From: a phage
Direction: 5' to 3' (one strand)
NCBI GenBank assembly: GCA_021469345.1
Contig: GCA_021469345.1_3049.1
DNA: 64,000 nucleotides
The number at the start of each line of letters is the position of its first letter. The stretch's first letter is position 1. Both the position numbers and the translations under genes were made by a program. A model generated the notes under the pieces. It had not been told where the DNA came from and did not search any database. It worked only from the letters and a program-made list of their open reading frames with translations. Of the stretch, positions 48,977 to 57,866 are shown piece after piece.

Positions 48977-49945
48977 ATGAAAACTGTAACTATCAATAAG
49001 GGTATCTACTTCGGTAAAGAAATCTCTGGAACTTTTGAGCTCTTAGGTGAATGGTTCCCAGATAATGCTCCGGTAGATGCACAAGGAGATGGTAAAGTTT
49101 TTGTTGAAATTGACGGTAAACGTCGCGGTGTTTGGGTTTACAAATCAGACATTTCATATGATGGTGTAAAAGTTGAAGAAGTTAAAGAATCGTATGAAGA
49201 TATGAAAACCCGCATTAATAAAAGATTTAATGTTATGGGAATGATGACGAATGGTATTATTAATGGAAATATTCGTTCATTAATTATCTCTGGCGCAGCA
49301 GGTATTGGTAAAACGTATTCTTTAGATAAAGCTTTAAATAAAGCAAATGATAATGGATACATTGAATATAAAAGCATTAATGGTAAAATCTCTGGTATCG
49401 GTCTTTATGAACAGCTCTGGAATAATCGTGAAGAGAATTCTGTCCTTTTGATTGATGATGTGGATGTTTTCTCTGATATGGACATTCTTAATCTTCTAAA
49501 AGCCGCTCTGGACACTGGAGAGACCCGTAAAGTCTGCTGGAGCACTGCATCTTCTTACTTAGAAGAAAAAGGCATTGACCGTGAGTTTGAATTTAAAGGA
49601 ACGATTGTTTTTATCACAAACGTTGACATTGACCGCGAATTAGACCGCGGTACTAAACTTGCTCCACATTTACAAGCATTAGTGTCCCGCTCAGTTTATT
49701 TGGATTTGGGTGTTCACACCAATGAAGAAATTATGGTCAGGGTTGAAGATGTTATTCTTTCAACTGACATGATGCAAAAGCGCGGTCTTTCTGATGAAGA
49801 AACTTATAAAGCATTATCATGGATGAAAGTTAATGTTAATCGTTTACGCAATGTTTCACTGCGTACTGCTCTTTATCTTGCTGACTTTATTATGACCGAC
49901 AAAAATCATTGGGAAGAAATTGCTGAAACGGTATTATTAAAATGA
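48977..49945 (+). CDS. AAA+ family ATPase
   Basis: Walker A GAAGIGKT and Walker B LLIDDVD; about 322 aa from the ATG after SD GGAG. Confidence 0.65.
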   Translation: MKTVTINKGIYFGKEISGTFELLGEWFPDNAPVDAQGDGKVFVEIDGKRRGVWVYKSDISYDGVKVEEVKESYEDMKTRINKRFNVMGMMTNGIINGNIRSLIISGAAGIGKTYSLDKALNKANDNGYIEYKSINGKISGIGLYEQLWNNREENSVLLIDDVDVFSDMDILNLLKAALDTGETRKVCWSTASSYLEEKGIDREFEFKGTIVFITNVDIDRELDRGTKLAPHLQALVSRSVYLDLGVHTNEEIMVRVEDVILSTDMMQKRGLSDEETYKALSWMKVNVNRLRNVSLRTALYLADFIMTDKNHWEEIAETVLLK

Positions 49946-50661
49946 AAAAATATTTTACTATCTATAAAACTGAAATATTAAATTTAAAGACAGGTATTAA
50001 GAAATACTATTATGGTCGACATATAACTAATAACATCAATGATTCGTATGTTGGTAGTGGAAATTATATAGAACGTGTAAAAGTGTCAAATGACCACATA
50101 TTATCAAAAACGGTTTTAGAAGTTTTTGATAATTATGATAAAATGGTACAAGCTGAAATATTATATATCATGGCAGGTAAATTGAAATATGGAAAAAACT
50201 GTGTTAACCTGTCATACGGGGGTGAAGGAGGAAAGGTTGCAGATGAAACTAGGATAAAATGCAAAAAGCATTCTATAAATTTATGGAAAAATCCTAATCA
50301 TATACAGCATATGAAGAAAAAGATGAAAGAGGTCACATCCACGCCGGAAGCTAAATTAAACACTTCAATAAAAACTTCGCAACGATATAAGGACCCAGTT
50401 TTTGTTAGAAAAGTTAGTAATATTATTAAAAAGAAACTAAGCAATCCTACAGTAAAAGAAAAGCATATTAATGGAATTAAAGCTGCAAAGCGTTCTCATT
50501 TAACTATATGGCAGTATGAAGATGAATTATTCGAGCTTTGGAAAGAAACTAAATATGGATGGAGAAAATTTACAAAGGAAGCTATAAAACACGGATATCC
50601 AAATGAACCGTATCGTAGTATGGTATCAACTTTTCAGAAAAGACATTTAGAAGAATCCTAA
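49942..50661 (+). CDS. GIY-YIG-type homing endonuclease (seg-like)
   Basis: 239 aa; YFTIYKTE...KKYYYGRH...YVGSG parallels the SegB N-terminus in this window; basic C-terminal region. Confidence 0.6.
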   Translation: MKKYFTIYKTEILNLKTGIKKYYYGRHITNNINDSYVGSGNYIERVKVSNDHILSKTVLEVFDNYDKMVQAEILYIMAGKLKYGKNCVNLSYGGEGGKVADETRIKCKKHSINLWKNPNHIQHMKKKMKEVTSTPEAKLNTSIKTSQRYKDPVFVRKVSNIIKKKLSNPTVKEKHINGIKAAKRSHLTIWQYEDELFELWKETKYGWRKFTKEAIKHGYPNEPYRSMVSTFQKRHLEES

Positions 50662-51106: not shown

Positions 51107-51379
51107 ATGAACGCTAAAGATATTTTCAACCTGGTAAATTACAACGATGGTAAATTTAAATCTGAAGCACAAAGCAAGTTCTTTAATGACATCTCAATCG
51201 GAGGTGAAATCACTGTTGATGGAGGACAAATTTACAAATCCCGTTGGAATTGGATCGTTATTATCGATGAGATTGGTATTGTAGAAATTTATAAAAATAC
51301 GAAAATCGTGCATTACACTGGTCTCGTGATACTAACGAACAGTACAAAAAGGATAAAGCATCTAAATTATCTCGTGTAA
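51107..51379 (+). CDS. Hypothetical protein
   Basis: 90 aa ORF downstream of an early promoter. Confidence 0.45.
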   Translation: MNAKDIFNLVNYNDGKFKSEAQSKFFNDISIGGEITVDGGQIYKSRWNWIVIIDEIGIVEIYKNTKIVHYTGLVILTNSTKRIKHLNYLV

Positions 51380-51414
51380 CTCAAGAAGATATTGAGTTCA
51401 TCAAGAAAGATATT

Positions 51415-51630
51415 TTGATGTATGATAACTTAATTGCTGAAGAGCAAGCTGTTATTGATAAATTTGATGAGATTAAAGCTTCTCGTGAAATTCCTGATTT
51501 TATGAAAGAATCAGTAAATGAACGATACACTCTCATTTCAGAGCGTATTGAAACTTACAAAAAGCAAAGAGCTGAACGCCAAAATACTCTTCGGAAGTTT
51601 GAAGAACGGTTAAAGACGGTACTCGCATAA
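51415..51630 (+). CDS. Hypothetical helical protein
   Basis: 71 aa ORF. Confidence 0.4.
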   Translation: MMYDNLIAEEQAVIDKFDEIKASREIPDFMKESVNERYTLISERIETYKKQRAERQNTLRKFEERLKTVLA

Positions 51631-51685: not shown

Positions 51686-51925
51686 ATGAAACAGTTGATA
51701 ATTAAAAGATTGAATTTATTGATATGTTGTTTATGTATAGTAATTGCATATGGTTATTACGCAATTAATGATTATATGCATTATAAAGATTATGATGTTA
51801 CTGTAGTTAAACCCTTACAGGAACTCAAGGAAAGGGGTCTAGTTTATCGTTTATTGCTGTATATGAACTCAAAGACGGTTATAGATTTAGCGAATATATT
51901 TCGCCAGAGATGTATTCTTCAATAG
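51686..51925 (+). CDS. Small membrane protein
   Basis: 79 aa with an N-terminal hydrophobic helix. Confidence 0.4.
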   Translation: MKQLIIKRLNLLICCLCIVIAYGYYAINDYMHYKDYDVTVVKPLQELKERGLVYRLLLYMNSKTVIDLANIFRQRCILQ

Positions 51926-52092
51926 AAAAAGGTGATAATATTACTGTAAGTTTACGTCCTTTCGACGTAAAACAGACATTGTTTGATAATATTGTTTGGT
52001 TCTTTGGAATGGTATTAGTTCAATCTATATGTGGTGCTTATATAGTCTGTTCCATCTTATTCTGTATATTTAGTAAAATTGAAATTGAGTGA
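51910..52092 (+). CDS. Small membrane protein
   Basis: 60 aa with a hydrophobic C-terminal segment. Confidence 0.35.
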   Translation: MYSSIEKGDNITVSLRPFDVKQTLFDNIVWFFGMVLVQSICGAYIVCSILFCIFSKIEIE

Positions 52093-52099
52093 GGAAAAT

Positions 52100-52987
52100 A
52101 TGTCAGTAGTAATTAATAATGTCAATGCAGTAATTAAATCTTTAGTTAATAAAAAATCAAATGAATGGACTGTACTTCAACACGACGAGTCAGATAAATT
52201 TTTTCATAAATTTAACCCAGTACTAAATTTAAATGTTATTGATAAAGATGTTCACGCCGAAATTTTAGATAAGTTTAAAGTTGATATTGGATTTGGATTA
52301 GAAAAACATTTACAACGAACAAACGGGTCTGGAATGCTTTTATCTAATCGCATTATGAAAGCCCTTAATAAAATTGGAGCATTGTCTCGTATTAACGCGA
52401 GTGAAATCCTTCGTAATTATAATAAAGGATATGACCTTTATGGTCGACTAATGCCGAAATTATCATTTGACCAAATGATCGCAGATTTGTGGGAAAATCA
52501 ACGACGATTATTAGCATTAGGCGCTCGATTGGCTAAAGGTCTAGATAAACAAATGATTTTTAAAACTAATAATACAGAAGACCTTAAATGCTTTAAATTT
52601 AGCACTCGTGGAGATGATTATTACGTCAGAGCTCACTCTACAGATTATGCTAATATGGGTCATCATCTCTGTTTAGCTTTTGAAGTTTTAAAAGAAGCCG
52701 GAACATTAGAATATGTGTCTGGTGCAAAATGCCCTATTGGTTCAAGTTGTATTTTAATTTATCGCCCGGATGAATCCAGTTCAACTAAATTGCCTACAAA
52801 ACCTGTACCAGTTCGCAGTAACGAAAAACATTCTGAACAAATTGATTATTTTAATAAGCAAATTGAAGAGCTGAATATTTCTATTCAACAATATGACGAT
52901 GAAATTTTCAGACTATCTGGACTGAGTAGTAAAGCTAAATCTGAGCGTGAAAAGTTAATTAAAATTGTTGATTTACTTAAATCTTAA
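52100..52987 (+). CDS. Paralog family member 1 (coiled-coil C-terminus), function unknown
   Basis: About 295 aa from the ATG after SD GAGGAAAA; central L..Q..LL..GARL..G motif and C-terminal heptad-like tail shared with the next three genes. Confidence 0.6.
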   Translation: MSVVINNVNAVIKSLVNKKSNEWTVLQHDESDKFFHKFNPVLNLNVIDKDVHAEILDKFKVDIGFGLEKHLQRTNGSGMLLSNRIMKALNKIGALSRINASEILRNYNKGYDLYGRLMPKLSFDQMIADLWENQRRLLALGARLAKGLDKQMIFKTNNTEDLKCFKFSTRGDDYYVRAHSTDYANMGHHLCLAFEVLKEAGTLEYVSGAKCPIGSSCILIYRPDESSSTKLPTKPVPVRSNEKHSEQIDYFNKQIEELNISIQQYDDEIFRLSGLSSKAKSEREKLIKIVDLLKS

Positions 52988-52995
52988 GGAACACT

Positions 52996-54024
52996 ATGAA
53001 AACTCGTTCTCAAATTGAAGATATGGTTCGTAATGCCAGTTATACTCGTGATGTTATGACATTTTTGTGTGAAAATAATTTAGACCCTGATAAAGTTAAT
53101 CGTGTTATTCATCACTTTAAGTATACGAATAGCAGTGAATGGGTGCGTAATTTTAGTAAAGCAGGGTATATTACACAAATGACTGCTCGTGAACAGCTCA
53201 CCGATTTCTGTAAAACTATTGATTATAAAAATCCTTTGATTGTTCAAGGCGTTGGTCAGAGTAAGGTTGATTTATCAACAGGATTTTTTAATCCAAATCA
53301 TTATCGTCTTGAATGGAGATTTATTGCTCTATTCCGTAAACAATTAAAGCAAATTTTGTCTACTGCTAGTCGATTAAAAGGTTCTGATATTAACTTAAAG
53401 AATCTGAAATTTGATGGTTATACTCTTCAGATGGAAGTAAGACCGTTAAAAGAAAATAATAGAACTGCACGAATTAGCTTTAAGCCTAATACAAAAAATT
53501 CTCTTTCAATTTGTGAATGCCTTAAATCACAGTTGACAGAAGCATTTAAGTATATGGATGTTGTTGCTGCTGTTCAATCTAAGATTTTACCTCGTTTTGA
53601 GCGAAATTGGGAACATACAACAACGTATGAACTTGATATGATCGTTTCATTTAAATACGATTTTTTGAGAAAGGACGAAGTCACGCAAGAGAAAAAGCAG
53701 GAAGTACAAGATAACTTAAATTTAAATTTATCTAATTACTTATCAAACGATCCTAAATTTTGGATGTATAGTTCAGGTAATAAAGATGCATGGAAATTCA
53801 ATAAAGTGAATTTTCTTCCTATTGAAAATCCGAGTCTTAAACCTGTTGAAAAATGGCACGCGGATGCGATTGAGAAGTCCCTTAAGGCAGTAGATGATGA
53901 ACTCGTTAAAGCGACCAATGAAGTGCTAAAAGCTGAAAAGGTGTTAGAACAAGCTCAGTCAAGGGTTCAAAATCTGACAAAGCAACGTTCTAAACTGAAC
54001 AATGCACTAAATGCACTAAACTAG
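52996..54024 (+). CDS. Paralog family member 2
   Basis: 342 aa; MKTR N-terminus; FRKQLKQILSTASRLKG central motif; coiled-coil tail. Confidence 0.6.
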   Translation: MKTRSQIEDMVRNASYTRDVMTFLCENNLDPDKVNRVIHHFKYTNSSEWVRNFSKAGYITQMTAREQLTDFCKTIDYKNPLIVQGVGQSKVDLSTGFFNPNHYRLEWRFIALFRKQLKQILSTASRLKGSDINLKNLKFDGYTLQMEVRPLKENNRTARISFKPNTKNSLSICECLKSQLTEAFKYMDVVAAVQSKILPRFERNWEHTTTYELDMIVSFKYDFLRKDEVTQEKKQEVQDNLNLNLSNYLSNDPKFWMYSSGNKDAWKFNKVNFLPIENPSLKPVEKWHADAIEKSLKAVDDELVKATNEVLKAEKVLEQAQSRVQNLTKQRSKLNNALNALN

Positions 54025-54055
54025 TTTACTTTGCCACAAGGATGTGGTATAATGT
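54015..54055 (+). promoter_or_regulatory. Early promoter for paralog 3
   Basis: GTTTAC at 54024, perfect TATAAT at 54048-54053; CCACAAGGATGTGG hairpin in the spacer. Confidence 0.6.
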
Positions 54056-54081
54056 TCTTACTTTCTACTGAGGAGATTAAT

Positions 54082-55083
54082 ATGACTCGTAACGAATATA
54101 TCAAATCATTCAATAGAGTTATTGATGATAAAGCTATACCGATGTTTGGCCAAAATAGCGTTCTTTCTATTATCAATCAATGGCTCAATAGTGTTGATGC
54201 AGGTATTGTTTCTTCTACTAAATTTATTCATGAAATTCGTAAAATTTCTAGCCGTGTAGATAAAGATCTTATCAAGAAAACCTTTAAAGAGTCTCGTCTT
54301 CTTTCATATTTGGTTAATCGGGATATTCTTGGTAATTTTGGGAAAGAAATTAAACGAACCAAAGATGTAGTAGGATACAATTGGTTCGGTGATGTTAATA
54401 CTTATCATCTTAATACTAAAGAAGACCCTGAGAATATTTTTACTCGTCGTTGGGTTAGTGAATTTAGGAGTTTTACGAAGCAAATTCTAAAATCAGCTTC
54501 TAAATTATGTTATGGCGATTATCGTCAAATTCATCCTTTAGCTGATGATATGATTATAGCAGAAGAATATGAACTTGATAAAAACAAAGTAGCTATTTTT
54601 ATTAATTACAGATTTTTTACACCAGAAACTAACCAAAAGAACATTAATAAATTTTTCTCAATTGCTAGCACTATAACTCGTCAATTAGAGACCGCATTAC
54701 TTTGTATGGAAACAGTAGAAAATATTCATACTTATCCTTTTAAGAATATATGCGGTTGGGAAGGATATAAACTCGTAATTAGCCTTCGTGAAGTGAAATG
54801 TGCTTATTCACCTACTGATAAAGAAATTTACCAACAAAAATGCGAAGAAATTGTGAATACTCCTAAAGAAGAAACTACCCTTGAGGAACTAATGGAATGT
54901 CTTGATGATTCGCCTGAACCGGTAGAAATTCGTCCAGAAGTTATTGCATTAGAAAAAGCTTATAAAGAAGCTCTAGAAATTTCTAATAAAGCACAGAAAG
55001 AATATGAGAAGGCTAAAAGGATTTGGGAAGAATCTGTCAATCGCTTGGATCGTCTTGAACAAGCTTTACAATTAATTAAGTAA
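54082..55083 (+). CDS. Paralog family member 3
   Basis: About 333 aa from the ATG after SD GAGGAG (the listed ORF start lies inside the promoter); FRSFTKQILKSASKL motif; coiled-coil tail. Confidence 0.6.
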   Translation: MTRNEYIKSFNRVIDDKAIPMFGQNSVLSIINQWLNSVDAGIVSSTKFIHEIRKISSRVDKDLIKKTFKESRLLSYLVNRDILGNFGKEIKRTKDVVGYNWFGDVNTYHLNTKEDPENIFTRRWVSEFRSFTKQILKSASKLCYGDYRQIHPLADDMIIAEEYELDKNKVAIFINYRFFTPETNQKNINKFFSIASTITRQLETALLCMETVENIHTYPFKNICGWEGYKLVISLREVKCAYSPTDKEIYQQKCEEIVNTPKEETTLEELMECLDDSPEPVEIRPEVIALEKAYKEALEISNKAQKEYEKAKRIWEESVNRLDRLEQALQLIK

Positions 55084-55135
55084 TTTAAAGCCAAGGATGG
55101 CTCGGAGTATAAACTATTAACCAAGTGAGAAGAAC

Positions 55136-56068
55136 ATGAAAACTCGTAAACATTATATTGATTATTTTGACAGTCTTATTACTAAACACCGTAATTATCA
55201 GATCGGGCACAGAGCAGTAATCAATAATATTCTTCGTGATTTCCTTCAATATGTTGGTCAGGAAAATCATATCTGTAAAGATACTCAAAACGCTTATTCT
55301 CATTCGTTAGGCAATTTGCTTGAATGGTTTAAACGTTCTCGTATGTTATCTTCTACTGTAGCTCGTGATAACATTAAAAACTTTATGAAACCGAGCTTTA
55401 TTAAATCTGTGACATCTAAAACCGATTTGGTTGAATTTACTATTATTAACGATGTTAAAAAGACTCATTTAGCTGATTGGTTATCTACCATTCCTGAAAC
55501 TAAATTTGCTGATAAATTTGCTTGTGAATTCAATAAACAAGTTAATATGCTTTTTAAACATTCATGTAAATTATTCACAGGCGGCGATGATCGTACAAAT
55601 AAAGTTCATGTTAAAGATTGGGTTACTGCAGTGTTCAAACCAACTGGTAATGGTAACGCATCATTATCAATTGATATCCAGGTTCCTTATTACTACTCAC
55701 GTAATCTCGGTACTATGAAAGCCGAAGAAATTAATAAGCGCAACAAAACCGTTCGTTCTCTGTCTTATAAACTTCGCATGATGTTACAGACTATGGATGT
55801 TGTTGAAATGTTCGACGAAACCGAAGATAACGGTTCAATGTTATATAGTTCTCGTACCCGAATTAAGTTGAAGAACCCTAACGAGTATAAACTTAAGACT
55901 ATTAAAGAACCTAAAGTAGAAAAGGTTGATAACTTGAGCGAAGAACGTGAATATCTCAATTCTCGTTTGATTGAAGTTGAAGCCCAAATTGCAGAACACA
56001 CCAAATTGTTAAAAGCTCTTAATGCAAAAGCAAATGGTTTACGTAATGCTATTGAGGTATTGAAATGA
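55136..56068 (+). CDS. Paralog family member 4
   Basis: 310 aa; MKTRKHY N-terminus; FNKQVNMLFKHSCKL motif; coiled-coil tail. Confidence 0.6.
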   Translation: MKTRKHYIDYFDSLITKHRNYQIGHRAVINNILRDFLQYVGQENHICKDTQNAYSHSLGNLLEWFKRSRMLSSTVARDNIKNFMKPSFIKSVTSKTDLVEFTIINDVKKTHLADWLSTIPETKFADKFACEFNKQVNMLFKHSCKLFTGGDDRTNKVHVKDWVTAVFKPTGNGNASLSIDIQVPYYYSRNLGTMKAEEINKRNKTVRSLSYKLRMMLQTMDVVEMFDETEDNGSMLYSSRTRIKLKNPNEYKLKTIKEPKVEKVDNLSEEREYLNSRLIEVEAQIAEHTKLLKALNAKANGLRNAIEVLK

Positions 56069-56379
56069 AAAAGCGTCTATTAGAAGACATTGCAGCTTCA
56101 AGTAATTCCAGTTTAATTAAAATTATTATGGCCGGTGAAGAAGACGATTTGGAAATGCGTGGAAAGATTCATGGTTGTGATGATTATAGCCCTCCTGTTA
56201 ATTGGGATTCTGTAATGGTCATGGTTAAACGTCGCGAAAGGGCTTCTAAAAACGTTCCTAATTGTCCTGAATGCGGTACTGAACAGGTACAATTAGTTCA
56301 TTGGCAGACTAGTAATCTTCGTTATAAATGTCGCCATTGTAAACACCGATTTGACCGAGAAGAAAATGACCAAGCGTAA
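56065..56379 (+). CDS. Zinc-ribbon protein
   Basis: 104 aa; CPECG...CRHCKH four-Cys/His ribbon. Confidence 0.5.
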
Positions 56380-56608
56380 AGAATATATGGAGGCTGCTGA
56401 AAAGGCAGTCCGTGAATTAGCAATAGCTTATTATAATGAACATGGTAAATTTCCTGATAGATATAGCGTGCTTAAATCTGCTTTAACTCGTTCATATAAA
56501 AATATGCTATCAGAAGTAAGTGATATTATATACAAACATAAAGAACAAACGGGCCAAAGTCTTGATTACGACGAGACTTTTAAACAAGTACTAGGAATTA
56601 AGGAATAA
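56366..56608 (+). CDS. Hypothetical protein
   Basis: About 80 aa; start uncertain. Confidence 0.4.
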
Positions 56609-56609
56609 T

Positions 56610-56873
56610 ATGTTTAAAGTATATGGTTATGATAGCAACATCCACAAATGCGTGTATTGCGATAATGCAAAACGTCTCTTGACTGTGAAGAAACAGCCGT
56701 TTGAATTTATCAACATTATGCCGGAAAAAGGTGTTTTTGATGATGAGAAAATTGCTGAGCTTCTGACTAAACTAGGTCGTGATACTCAAATCGGCTTAAC
56801 AATGCCTCAGGTATTTGCTCCTGATGGAAGTCATATTGGTGGATTTGACCAATTGCGGGAATACTTTAAATGA
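56610..56873 (+). CDS. nrdC: Thioredoxin/glutaredoxin NrdC
   Basis: 87 aa; CVYC redox motif; matches T4 NrdC in length. Confidence 0.85.
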   Translation: MFKVYGYDSNIHKCVYCDNAKRLLTVKKQPFEFINIMPEKGVFDDEKIAELLTKLGRDTQIGLTMPQVFAPDGSHIGGFDQLREYFK

Positions 56874-57085
56874 TGCTCGAAGGAACTGATTATATCCATG
56901 ATTATCGTGGAAGCGCGGTATATGTAGGTGATGAAGTTGCAGTTTACTATGGGTATGGAGCTTTGATGACAGCTAAGGTTATTCAAATTAAAAATAACCG
57001 TGCTAAACTTGAAGTTTATTATTCTAATGGCGAAAAGTCTATTTCTAAGTGGAAATATGGCGATTGTATGGTTAAACTGGGGTAA
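56870..57085 (+). CDS. Hypothetical protein
   Basis: 71 aa ORF coupled to nrdC. Confidence 0.45.
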   Translation: MMLEGTDYIHDYRGSAVYVGDEVAVYYGYGALMTAKVIQIKNNRAKLEVYYSNGEKSISKWKYGDCMVKLG

Positions 57086-57087
57086 AT

Positions 57088-57258
57088 ATGATTTACGATA
57101 TTAATGTAGCAAGAACTCCATTAATGGTTACTATTCCAGCTGAAGAATTAGATCGTCTTCAGAAAATTGAAGAACTTCTTTGGGAAATTGAATCTGATTT
57201 GCCATCAGGACTAGAATCCTGGATTGATTATGAAGAACTTAATAAGCTTCGGGGTTAA
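57088..57258 (+). CDS. Small hypothetical acidic protein
   Basis: 56 aa ORF; a second 54-aa ORF (57230-57394) overlaps its end in another frame. Confidence 0.3.
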   Translation: MIYDINVARTPLMVTIPAEELDRLQKIEELLWEIESDLPSGLESWIDYEELNKLRG

Positions 57259-57380
57259 ACCCTGGTGGGCGGTTAGATGGGAAACTGTAGAGCCAGAGCC
57301 GGAAGAACCGGTTTACACTGATGAAGAAACAGTATATAATGAACCTACAATAAATGACTTAATTGATATGGAGATGGGAC

Positions 57381-57866
57381 ATGATTACAGTAGATAAGTG
57401 GTTTAGAATTAATCGTGCTGATACAGGGCTGTGTAATTACTGGCCGGAACTTAGTGCAGGTACTGTCTTTAAGGTTCGTGAACTTGCAAAAGAATGTGAA
57501 GATGATATAGAGCCTGATACTGGAATTATTGAAATTGAACTTTCCGACGGAAAGATTATTAACATCTATGATAAGCCAATTACGTATTGGTGCTTGTGGA
57601 ATACTGAATCAGTCGCAACTGGCGAAATTGAAGAAGTCGTAGAACGAGTTGATCAAGCTATTCATAAACCTAAAGCCGATTTTCAAGGTGAACGTATTTC
57701 ATACGCATTAGCTAAATTAGCTGCACAAGAAAATAACGATGGCTATGAAGGTAACCTGATGCAAGCTGCCGCAGAGTACATTGAATGGCTTGAAACTCAA
57801 ATTTCTTTTTCTGACCAAAAGATTCGGCAATATAAGCGATTGAATCAAATGTTTTACAATACTTGA
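57381..57866 (+). CDS. pin: Protease inhibitor Pin (inhibitor of host Lon protease)
   Basis: 161 aa from ATG (MITVDKWFRIN); T4 PinA length and position next to gene 49. The listed ORF starts at an upstream TTG. Confidence 0.7.
   Translation: MITVDKWFRINRADTGLCNYWPELSAGTVFKVRELAKECEDDIEPDTGIIEIELSDGKIINIYDKPITYWCLWNTESVATGEIEEVVERVDQAIHKPKADFQGERISYALAKLAAQENNDGYEGNLMQAAAEYIEWLETQISFSDQKIRQYKRLNQMFYNT

What the first reader, a model, noticed from the sequence alone, without database searches (positions are those of the whole stretch)
52100..56068. Tandem array of four divergent paralogs with a shared central motif and coiled-coil C-termini
Four consecutive plus-strand genes (about 295, 342, 333 and 310 aa) have the same architecture: a variable N-terminal region (two begin MKTR), a shared central motif (FRKQLKQILSTASRLKG / FRSFTKQILKSASKL / FNKQVNMLFKHSCKL / LWENQRRLLALGARLAKG), a variable region containing MDVV/METV, and a C-terminal heptad-like coiled coil of about 40 aa. 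I recognise no known domain. Tandem, rapidly diverging paralog sets in the early region of lytic phages are typical of host-takeover or anti-defence factors under diversifying selection. At least two of them (the genes starting 54082 and 55136) are each preceded by a hairpin carrying an AAGGA loop, and the 54082 gene by its own early promoter.
Basis: seen in the sequence. Interest (0 to 1): 0.7.

Follow-up and report, generated by a model that had tools for sequence, protein, structure and literature searches.

The report
T4 nrdC.3–nrdC.6 anti-defence paralog array
Four neighbouring early genes of a T4-like phage are very old, highly diverged copies of one gene, and since the T4 counterpart of one copy is already published as disabling the bacterial immune protein Dsr1, the other three become candidate immune-evasion genes.

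Summary
The window is a Tequatrovirus (T4-like) genome. The four genes are the orthologs of T4 nrdC.6, nrdC.5, nrdC.4 and nrdC.3.

Plain BLASTP links only nrdC.4 to nrdC.3. Profile-profile comparison and AlphaFold/Foldseek link all four into one fold family:
- C-D: E=1.6e-13.
- B vs C+D: E=9e-8.
- A vs B+C+D: E=1.6e-5.
- Every observed score lies above all 60 column-shuffle controls.

The shared plan is a helical N-terminus, a basic α/β core with three conserved motifs, a disordered linker and a long C-terminal amphipathic helix. Related phage genera carry three copies. Acinetobacter phage Acj61 carries two, also just upstream of nrdC.

The anti-defence interpretation is partly supported. T4 nrdC.5, 95-96% identical to gene B, is published as counteracting the SIR2 defence Dsr1 (eLife 2022). 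Neighbouring genes nrdC.1, nrdC.8 and 49.2 are published inhibitors of Septu, Druantia III and OLD.

Diversifying selection is not supported. dN/dS is 0.12-0.28 and no 30-codon window exceeds 1.

The hairpins are real but statistically unremarkable. The early promoter before nrdC.4 is a strong, conserved match. The common GenBank label "thioredoxin" is wrong.

The genes are known. The new points are the unification into one superfamily and three candidate anti-defence genes.

The parts
52100..52987 (+). Gene A, ortholog of T4 nrdC.6 (295 aa; PF26899, phrog_2257). It is the most divergent paralog.
   Evidence: ORF. A GAGG Shine-Dalgarno sequence precedes the ATG at 52100. 90-99% identical to Tequatrovirus orthologs. 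hhalign against the B+C+D profile gives E=1.6e-5. AF2 model; Foldseek.
52996..54024 (+). Gene B, ortholog of T4 nrdC.5 (342 aa; Pfam DUF7235/PF23882, phrog_2351). The T4 protein is the published anti-Dsr1 counter-defence gene.
   Evidence: Pfam E=8e-128. 95-96% identical to T4 NrdC.5. Literature. hhalign against C+D gives E=9e-8.
54082..55083 (+). Gene C, ortholog of T4 nrdC.4 (333 aa; PF26897, phrog_1435).
55136..56068 (+). Gene D, ortholog of T4 nrdC.3 (310 aa; phrog_1435). It is a Tequatrovirus-specific duplicate of nrdC.4 and occurs in two allelic types.
   Evidence: C-D hhalign E=1.6e-13. Absent from the 9 non-Tequatrovirus loci. 63-64% identical to the T4 allele and 85-88% to the L002/L004 allele.
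52364..52426 (+). Shared motif 1 in A (LNKIGALSRINASEILRNYNK). Equivalents: B 53152-53214, C 54283-54345, D 55328-55390.
Evidence: Aligned by hhalign. Coordinates.
52487..52540 (+). Shared central motif in A (LWENQRRLLALGARLAKG). Equivalents: B 53332-53382, C 54463-54516, D 55529-55582.
   Evidence: Coordinates. It falls in the equivalent helix of both AF2 models (A H134-144, C H132-142). pN/pS is about 0 here in A and B.
53533..53574 (+). Third shared motif in B (LTEAFKYMDVVAAV). Equivalents: C 54685-54726, D 55772-55813, and a weak one in A at 52667-52717.
53851..54021 (+). C-terminal long amphipathic, heptad-like helix of B. Equivalents: A 52817-52984, C 54934-55080, D 55931-56065.
   Evidence: AF2 helices. 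Heptad score. All four proteins end in the pattern (A/I)(L/I/V)x(L/V/A)(L/I)(K/N).
54025..54053 (+). T4-early-type sigma-70 promoter before gene C: GTTTAC, 17 nt, TATAAT, with a TG extended -10.
   Evidence: 10 of 12 matches. Essentially invariant in 7 Tequatrovirus relatives.
54032..54049 (+). Hairpin (7 bp, loop AGGA) lying inside the promoter spacer.
   Evidence: The region z-score is -1.8, not significant. There is no covariation because the sequence is invariant.
55089..55102 (+). Hairpin (5 bp, loop AGGA) before gene D. The surrounding sequence (TTTAAAGCCAAGGATGGCTCGGAGTATAAA) looks like a decayed copy of the gene C promoter.
   Evidence: z=-0.1. One relative breaks the stem. The resemblance to the C promoter is read directly from the sequence.

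Best explanation
The region is the nrdC.6-nrdC.5-nrdC.4-nrdC.3 block of a T4-like (Tequatrovirus) phage.

Shown here:
- The four genes are ancient tandem duplicates of one roughly 300-340 aa protein.
- The protein has a helical N-terminus, a basic α/β core with three conserved motifs, a disordered linker and a long C-terminal amphipathic helix.
- Members of this fold family sit just upstream of nrdC across Straboviridae.
- The block lies in the early, dispensable accessory region, and nrdC.4 has its own early promoter.

From the literature plus 95-96% identity:
- Gene B very probably neutralises the SIR2/TPR defence protein Dsr1, as T4 NrdC.5 does.

Inferred:
- The proteins are non-enzymatic, stoichiometric binders made early in infection. 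They would occupy a host immune sensor or effector before its late trigger appears. For Dsr1 that trigger is the major capsid protein.
- The conserved core and C-terminal helix would provide the scaffold and oligomerisation. The variable N-terminal region and surface loops would set target specificity.
- The other three paralogs (A, C, D) most likely each counter a different host defence or defence variant, so they act as independent host-range factors rather than as one obligate complex.
For: Identity and synteny with T4 nrdC.3 to nrdC.6.

Paralogy:
- hhalign results, with shuffle and reversal controls.
- The AF2 models of C and A show the same order of secondary-structure elements.
- Foldseek: model C hits JS10 NrdC.6 at E=1.6e-5, and both models hit the same eight or more Straboviridae proteins.
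- Acj61 members p120 and p121 lie in tandem next to nrdC.

Function of B: T4 nrdC.5 complements loss of infectivity on Dsr1 hosts (PMC9391042).

Anti-defence neighbourhood: nrdC.1 against Septu, and Bas37_0203 (528 bp, at the nrdC.8 position) against Druantia III; gp49.2 against OLD.

Dispensability: T4 nrdC.3 to nrdC.6 and bas37_0198 to bas37_0201 are all non-essential by transposon sequencing.

Independence of the copies:
- C is split by frameshifts in T2, G8 and L002 while its neighbours stay intact.
- A natural B-D fusion that deletes C exists.
- D is absent outside Tequatrovirus.

Timing: there is an early promoter. The Dsr1 trigger is the late major capsid protein (PMC12803255).

Conserved core with variable N-terminus and loops.

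No enzyme or thioredoxin signature.
Against: - No functional data exist for A, C or D.
- In the two Bas37 transposon-sequencing host comparisons I read (CFT073, CFE299), none of the four orthologs was conditionally required.
- How NrdC.5 acts on Dsr1 is unknown. Direct binding has not been shown, so an enzymatic or indirect route is not excluded.
- The strongly conserved polar residues in the central motif (for example NQRR..R..G.DKQ in A) could equally mark an active site.
- The A link rests on 79-89% hhalign probability plus Foldseek on predicted models, not on solved structures.
Confidence: 0.6

Rival explanations
1. The four proteins are subunits of one hetero-oligomeric complex held together by their C-terminal coiled coils. 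Together they perform a single job (anti-Dsr1 or another host-takeover function) rather than four separate ones.
For: All four have a similar C-terminal amphipathic helix with a shared ending. A, B and C co-occur in the same order in all 13 related loci.
Against: - nrdC.5 alone, expressed from a plasmid, restored infection on Dsr1 cells.
- C is a frameshifted pseudogene in T2, G8 and L002, and is deleted in a natural B-D fusion, while the other copies persist.
- D is missing from whole genera.
Confidence: 0.12
2. The conserved α/β core mimics a phage structural protein (tail-terminator or tail-completion, gpU-like fold). The proteins would act as decoys for immune sensors that recognise conserved virion proteins.
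Against: - Z stays below 7.
- Nitroreductases, RNA polymerase alpha/Rpo11 and generic coiled coils score equally well.
- Model A does not retrieve tail proteins.
- The reported Dsr1 trigger is the major capsid protein, not a tail protein.
Confidence: 0.08
3. The proteins are host-takeover or nucleic-acid-binding factors unrelated to immunity, such as early regulators that bind host DNA, RNA or enzymes. The Dsr1 effect of NrdC.5 would then be indirect.
For: The conserved cores are basic, with pI 8.9-9.6 and net charge +5 to +9. No conditional requirement was seen on two clinical hosts. The mechanism of NrdC.5 is unknown.
Against: Plasmid-expressed nrdC.5 specifically rescues infection on cloned dsr1. 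The genes lie among several proven anti-defence genes. All four are fully dispensable on laboratory hosts.
Confidence: 0.15
4. The resemblance among the four proteins is chance or compositional (low-complexity helices), and they are unrelated genes.
For: Pairwise BLASTP is not significant for A against any of the others, nor for B-D. Databases keep the proteins in three separate Pfam and PHROG families.
Against: Profile-profile E-values are 1e-5 to 1e-13, collinear over 115-254 columns, and far above the shuffle and reversal controls. Independent structure-based matches agree. The order of secondary-structure elements is the same.
Confidence: 0.03

Closest known systems
T4 NrdC.5 (anti-Dsr1 counter-defence gene; Srikant et al., eLife 2022, PMC9391042)
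   Same: Gene B is its ortholog. It is 95-96% identical over the full length, sits in the same position between nrdC.6 and nrdC.4, and belongs to the same Pfam family, DUF7235.
   Different: Function was not tested for this phage. The published work did not report that NrdC.5 has three tandem paralogs or a Straboviridae-wide fold family, and its mechanism is unknown.
T4 nrdC.3, nrdC.4 and nrdC.6 (uncharacterised early ORFs; PF26897, PF26899, phrog_1435, phrog_2257)
   Same: Genes D, C and A are their orthologs (63-64%, 94% and 90-93% identical respectively) with identical synteny.
   Different: D belongs to a different allelic type from the T4 copy. The T4 RefSeq nrdC.6 is truncated by a 1-nt deletion relative to this window and six other relatives.
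DSAD1 (anti-DSR2 protein of SPbeta-like Bacillus phages)
   Same: It is a functional analogue: a phage protein that neutralises a defence-associated sirtuin by binding it, in competition with the structural-protein trigger (per the abstracts listed).
   Different: No sequence or fold comparison was run here. It comes from a different phage group, acts on a different target (DSR2) and is not known as a paralog array.
Other T-even accessory anti-defence clusters (dmd-tifA-adfA anti-TA island; IPI/IPII/IPIII; nrdC.1, nrdC.8 ortholog, gp49.2)
   Same: They are early, non-essential, variable genes clustered in hyperplastic regions, each countering one host defence. The nrdC.x block is physically contiguous with three of them.
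   Different: Those inhibitors are mostly small and unrelated to each other. Here four large (about 35-40 kDa) proteins are homologous to one another.
Tail terminator / tail completion proteins (lambda gpU-like fold)
   Same: They are the best PDB structural neighbours of the C core (about 90-100 residues).

Membership tests
T4 NrdC.5 / Pfam DUF7235 (PF23882), tested for gene B | Full-length match to the family model above its gathering score | tested here: met
   427 bits against a cut-off of 30, E=8e-128, covering 1-342.
T4 NrdC.5 / Pfam DUF7235 (PF23882), tested for gene B | Orthology to T4 nrdC.5 by high identity and conserved position | tested here: met
   95-96% identity. Lies between the nrdC.6 and nrdC.4 orthologs.
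T4 NrdC.5 / Pfam DUF7235 (PF23882), tested for gene B | Neutralises Dsr1-mediated defence | not testable with these tools
   Shown only for the T4 protein by plasmid complementation (PMC9391042).
Pfam DUF7235, tested for genes A, C and D | Match to the PF23882 model | tested here: not met
   No hit at E<=1. Precomputed annotation places their homologs in PF26899 (A) and PF26897 (C).
Single NrdC.3-NrdC.6 fold superfamily (proposed here) | Statistically significant, collinear profile-profile similarity among all four families | tested here: met
   C-D E=1.6e-13; B vs C+D E=9e-8; A vs B+C+D E=1.6e-5. All observed scores exceed the 60 shuffles and the reversed profiles.
Single NrdC.3-NrdC.6 fold superfamily (proposed here) | Same predicted fold | tested here: met
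   Tested for A and C only. Secondary-structure order is the same. Model C hits NrdC.6 of JS10 at E=1.6e-5, and both models retrieve the same Straboviridae proteins.
Thioredoxin (the label many GenBank records give these genes) | CxxC active site and thioredoxin fold or Pfam match | tested here: not met
   None of the four has a CxxC. There is no thioredoxin Pfam or NCBIfam hit, and thioredoxins are absent from the fold-search hits.
Coiled-coil C-terminus | Long helix with heptad hydrophobic periodicity above chance | tested here: inconclusive
   AF2 predicts long helices in A and C. The crude heptad score is above 200 shuffles for A (0/200) and B (1%), 3.5% for D with its best window elsewhere, and not significant for C. 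No calibrated coiled-coil predictor was available.
Genes under diversifying (positive) selection | dN/dS > 1, gene-wide or in local windows | tested here: not met
   Gene-wide 0.12-0.28. The maximum over 30-codon windows is 0.77. Only 7-8 sequences and a counting method were used.
Tyrosine-recombinase N-terminal SAM-like domain | Recurrent match across family members | tested here: not met
   Only D matches, far below the cut-offs: Pfam E=0.09 and NCBIfam E=0.002. That is 1 of 33 members of the C/D alignment and 0 of 31 members of the A alignment.

The most novel reading that the evidence does not exclude
The NrdC.3-NrdC.6 proteins are a Straboviridae-wide family of paralogous "sensor blockers". 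They share one scaffold, and its variable N-terminus and loops have been retuned by tandem duplication to pre-emptively occupy different bacterial pattern-recognition receptors before late virion proteins appear. Candidate targets are Dsr1 and other proteins carrying the Avs7-type TPR capsid sensor, or other defences. Copy number (2-4) and allele type would then be a direct determinant of host range.
Probability: 0.2. Interest if true: 0.7.

Novelty: new member of a known kind. Interest (0 to 1): 0.45.

Why it matters
T-even phages are the workhorses of phage biology and of phage therapy cocktails, yet most of their early accessory genes have no assigned function. If NrdC.5, the only known anti-Dsr1 factor, is one of four tandem homologs, then three more genes (nrdC.3, nrdC.4 and nrdC.6) become directly testable anti-defence candidates. 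The family is present, by structure, in Straboviridae infecting Escherichia, Yersinia, Klebsiella, Serratia, Pectobacterium, Erwinia and Acinetobacter.

The comparison also separates the parts of the protein. The conserved part is the basic core, the three motifs and the C-terminal helix. The variable part, which probably sets specificity, is the N-terminal region and the loops. This can guide mutagenesis and structural work on Dsr1 inhibition. It also corrects a widespread "thioredoxin" misannotation.

Tried and rejected
- Pairwise BLASTP and a 4-sequence MAFFT alignment were too weak to decide paralogy.
- The first shallow-profile hhalign runs were inconclusive for A. Divergent B homologs taken from related loci and merged profiles were needed.
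- An exhaustive phmmer search of D against 1.84 billion representatives found only 4 clusters, all NrdC.3, so D gave no bridge to other families.
- PDB sequence searches gave only spurious designed helical repeats.
- NCBIfam and PADLOC gave nothing meaningful.
- The weak tyrosine-recombinase SAM-like hit in D was rejected because it does not recur in other members.
- Bas37_0203, the published anti-Druantia III gene, is not one of these paralogs. By size and position it corresponds to nrdC.8.
- nrdC.10 (P-loop ATPase motif) and nrdC.11 (annotated as a nucleotidyltransferase in T4) are of similar size. They gave no hit to the family HMMs and were not compared further.
- The hairpins are real but not significant and show no covariation.
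- The HIDEN-SEQ supplementary tables showed no conditional requirement on CFT073 or CFE299. I missed the CFE303 rows and did not read CFE331 or the T4 host tables.

Full report
**What the region is.** The window is a T4-like myovirus. Megablast of 52000-56400 finds 666 phage records, nearly all Tequatrovirus, with a best identity of 94.6%. Against the T4 RefSeq annotation and by tblastn, the four ORFs correspond as follows:
- A, 52100-52987, is T4 nrdC.6.
- B, 52996-54024, is T4 nrdC.5 (95-96% identical).
- C, 54082-55083, is T4 nrdC.4 (94%).
- D, 55136-56068, is T4 nrdC.3 (63-64%).

Downstream come nrdC.2, nrdC.1, nrdC, pin, endonuclease VII and nrdD. The genes therefore have names and database families of unknown function:
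- B matches Pfam DUF7235 at E=8e-128.
- PHROGs places A in phrog_2257, B in phrog_2351, and both C and D in phrog_1435.
- Precomputed annotation gives PF26897 for C homologs and PF26899 for A homologs.

**Checking the observation.** All coordinates, lengths, N-termini and quoted motifs are correct.

Pairwise BLASTP supports only C-D (E=5e-7 over the N-terminal 150 aa). B-C is marginal (E=0.006), and A matches none of the others. I collected homologs of A, B and C. I then fetched 13 related loci from IMG/VR. These supplied divergent NrdC.5-like proteins (about 300 aa) from other T-even genera.

With those families, hhalign gives C-D 98% probability at E=1.6e-13, and B-C 84% at E=7e-6. With merged profiles:
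- B vs (C+D) gives 94% probability, E=9e-8 over 254 collinear columns.
- A vs (B+C+D) gives 79%, E=1.6e-5 local, or 89%, E=2.4e-7 global.

No A sequence was present in the target profile. Controls with 60 column-shuffled target profiles gave maximum scores of 25.3, 21.9 and 29.5, against observed scores of 44.3, 60.6 and 40.5. Reversed profiles scored 16.7-26.3.

**Structure.** AF2 models were built for two of the four proteins:
- C: pLDDT 82.5, pTM 0.67.
- A: pLDDT 78.2, pTM 0.66.

Both show the same succession of elements: N-terminal helices, a helix pair carrying motif 1, a helix pair carrying the central motif, a β-hairpin, a long helix ending in the MDVV-type motif, a second β-hairpin, a low-confidence linker, and a 45-55 residue C-terminal helix.

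Foldseek of model C against BFVD returns NrdC.6 of phage JS10 (E=1.6e-5, 342 aligned columns). It also returns full-length matches to uncharacterised 300-370 aa proteins of Straboviridae infecting Acinetobacter, Pectobacterium, Klebsiella, Enterobacter, Serratia, Erwinia and Yersinia. Model A returns the same proteins: IME523, PM2, fHyAci03, Acj61 E5E4A2, Acj9, Mineola and fHe-Yen9-01.

In Acinetobacter phage Acj61, two tandem genes immediately upstream of nrdC, Acj61p120 (330 aa) and Acj61p121 (304 aa), match the two Acj61 hits in length. The family and its location therefore predate the split of the Straboviridae subfamilies.

The four genes are thus true, very old paralogs.

**Copy number and turnover.** All five IMG/VR or T4 Tequatrovirus loci carry A-B-C-D. 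The nine loci from other T-even genera carry A, a divergent B and C, but no D. D is therefore a Tequatrovirus-specific duplicate of C. It occurs as two alleles, 63-64% versus 85-88% identical to the window copy.

The intergenic sequence before D (TTTAAAGCCAAGGATGGCTCGGAGTATAAA) resembles the promoter before C (GTTTACTTTGCCACAAGGATGTGGTATAAT). This suggests that the duplication carried the promoter along and that the copy later decayed. That reading comes directly from the sequence.

Individual copies are expendable:
- C is split by a frameshift in L002, T2 and G8.
- One protein cluster is an in-frame B-D fusion that deletes C, with junction KFNKV|NMLFKH.
- Phage Sf25 has an 83-aa internal duplication in A.

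**Selection.** Nei-Gojobori estimates against five relatives give dN/dS of 0.12-0.28 for the four genes. The same estimate is 0.00-0.06 for nrdC, nrdC.1, endonuclease VII and nrdD, and 0.10-0.20 for pin.

In 30-codon sliding windows over 7-8 sequences, no window exceeds 0.77. The central motif region is essentially frozen: A residues 91-165 give 0.00 and B residues 106-195 give 0.00-0.09. The N-terminal 16-60 residues, some loops and the linker are the variable parts.

"Rapidly diverging under diversifying selection" is therefore not supported. [quoted passage not shown] describes the data.

**Regulatory features.** GTTTAC-17-TATAAT at 54025-54053, with an extended -10 TG, is one of the three best promoter matches in the 6 kb scanned. 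It is nearly invariant in seven relatives.

The hairpins with an AGGA loop exist. However, the surrounding regions fold no better than shuffles (z=-1.8 and -0.1). The first hairpin lies in the promoter spacer, upstream of the expected transcription start. No covariation is available, and one relative breaks the second stem. I attach no function to them.

None of the four proteins has a CxxC motif or any thioredoxin signal, so the frequent GenBank label "thioredoxin" is a naming artefact from "nrdC.x". The conserved cores are basic (pI 8.9-9.6), so these are not acidic DNA mimics.

**Literature.**
- Srikant et al. (eLife 2022, PMC9391042) showed that a T4 deletion mutant could no longer infect ECOR17 because of Dsr1. 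Plasmid expression of the "uncharacterized early gene nrdC.5" restored infection of MG1655 carrying dsr1.
- A 2026 preprint reports that Dsr1 carries a TPR sensor shared with Avs7 and is triggered by phage major capsid protein (PMC12803255).
- The HIDEN-SEQ preprint finds T4 nrdC.1 to be a Septu inhibitor and Bas37_0203 to be a Druantia III inhibitor. Bas37_0203 is 528 bp and sits at the nrdC.8 position. The same preprint classifies T4 nrdC.3 to nrdC.6 and their Bas37 orthologs as non-essential.
- In the two Bas37 host comparisons I read (CFT073, CFE299), the four orthologs showed no conditional depletion.
- T6 gp49.2, a few genes downstream, inhibits OLD (PMC13096335).
- No paper in the library discusses nrdC.3, nrdC.4 or nrdC.6 functionally.

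**Most likely mechanism.**
- Shown here: the four genes form one fold family, they are early and dispensable, and they have a conserved core with a variable periphery.
- From the literature plus 95-96% identity: B counters Dsr1.
- Inferred: the proteins are stoichiometric binders made early, and they occupy a defence sensor or effector before the late trigger (capsid protein) accumulates. The C-terminal helix would drive oligomerisation. A, C and D would be tuned to other defences or variants. Independent pseudogenisation, fusion and lineage-specific loss argue against an obligate four-subunit complex.

Alternatives are listed under the rival explanations: one hetero-oligomer, a structural-protein decoy, an indirect or non-immune function, and chance resemblance.

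**Novelty and score.** The genes and the anti-Dsr1 role of NrdC.5 are known. The searchable literature and the family databases do not record three things: the unification of nrdC.3, nrdC.4, nrdC.5 and nrdC.6 into a single structural superfamily, the conserved position of that superfamily upstream of nrdC across Straboviridae, and the resulting nomination of three further anti-defence candidates. This is a useful but incremental result. I rate it as a new member of a known kind, with interest 0.45.

Noticed in passing
window 51107-51630 (around 51302): The nrdC.8 ortholog is broken by a 4-nt deletion found only in this window among 8 Tequatrovirus sequences, leaving 90-aa and 71-aa ORFs. The Bas37 gene at this position (bas37_0203) is a published Druantia III inhibitor, so this phage may have lost that function, or the sequence may carry an error.
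   Followed up: partly
window 51686-52092 (around 51811): The nrdC.7 ortholog (a predicted membrane protein) is split by a 1-nt deletion unique to this window, giving 79-aa and 60-aa ORFs.
   Followed up: partly
window 49942-50661: A 239-aa ORF lies between the nrdC.10 and nrdC.9 orthologs. It is 100% identical to an ORF in locus L005, and no ortholog was found in T4 or the other three loci compared (L002-L004). By eye it looks like a GIY-YIG/MobD-type homing endonuclease, but no family search was run. It appears to be a mobile insertion.
   Followed up: partly
L001 (T4 NC_000866) nrdC.6, equivalent to window ~52874: The T4 RefSeq sequence lacks one base that is present in the window and six relatives. 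Its annotated NrdC.6 is therefore 275 aa and loses the end of the C-terminal helix. The T4D annotation used by HIDEN-SEQ has the 296-aa form.
   Followed up: partly
protein P0120 (3 contigs, one of 167 kb); equivalent to window ~53800 joined to ~55540: This is a natural in-frame fusion of NrdC.5 (up to ...AWKFNKV) to NrdC.3 (from NMLFKH...). It deletes nrdC.4 and parts of both neighbours, and the junction lies at a short FNK(Q)VN microhomology.
   Followed up: partly
protein P0122 (Shigella phage Sf25 NrdC.6, 378 aa): It carries an internal tandem duplication of about 83 residues (IRAHSTDY...QIEEL repeated) within the NrdC.6 core and linker.
   Followed up: no
L002 9950-10982; T2 (H38); BFVD entries for phages G8 and T2: nrdC.4 is split into two ORFs by a frameshift in several Tequatroviruses while nrdC.3, nrdC.5 and nrdC.6 remain intact.
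   Followed up: partly
window 56065-56379 (nrdC.2) and 55136-56068 (nrdC.3): These genes are mosaic. nrdC.2 is 96% identical to T4 but 57-76% to other close relatives. nrdC.3 is 63-64% identical to T4 but 85-88% to L002/L004. This indicates allele exchange within the block.
   Followed up: partly
window 56870-57397: The window has no homolog of T4 gp49.2 (whose T6 ortholog is the published OLD inhibitor) or of gp49.3. Two different small ORFs (71 and 56 aa) fill the space, as in phage FelixPlatter (Bas40).
   Followed up: partly
GenBank annotations under hits H3, H5, H14, H15 and others: Many records label all seven genes from nrdC.6 to nrdC as "thioredoxin". Only nrdC itself is one, and the label has spread to UniProt names.
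   Followed up: yes
L017 (Acinetobacter phage Acj61) 1229-3938: Adjacent genes are annotated as nicotinamide phosphoribosyltransferase and ribose-phosphate pyrophosphokinase. This pair resembles an NAD+ reconstitution pathway and sits in the same phage that carries two members of the NrdC.x fold family.
   Followed up: no
Salmonella phage Manna (H55): Only the C-terminal 25% of NrdC.4 (residues 251-333) matches, at 93% identity. This could be a chimeric or truncated copy.
   Followed up: no
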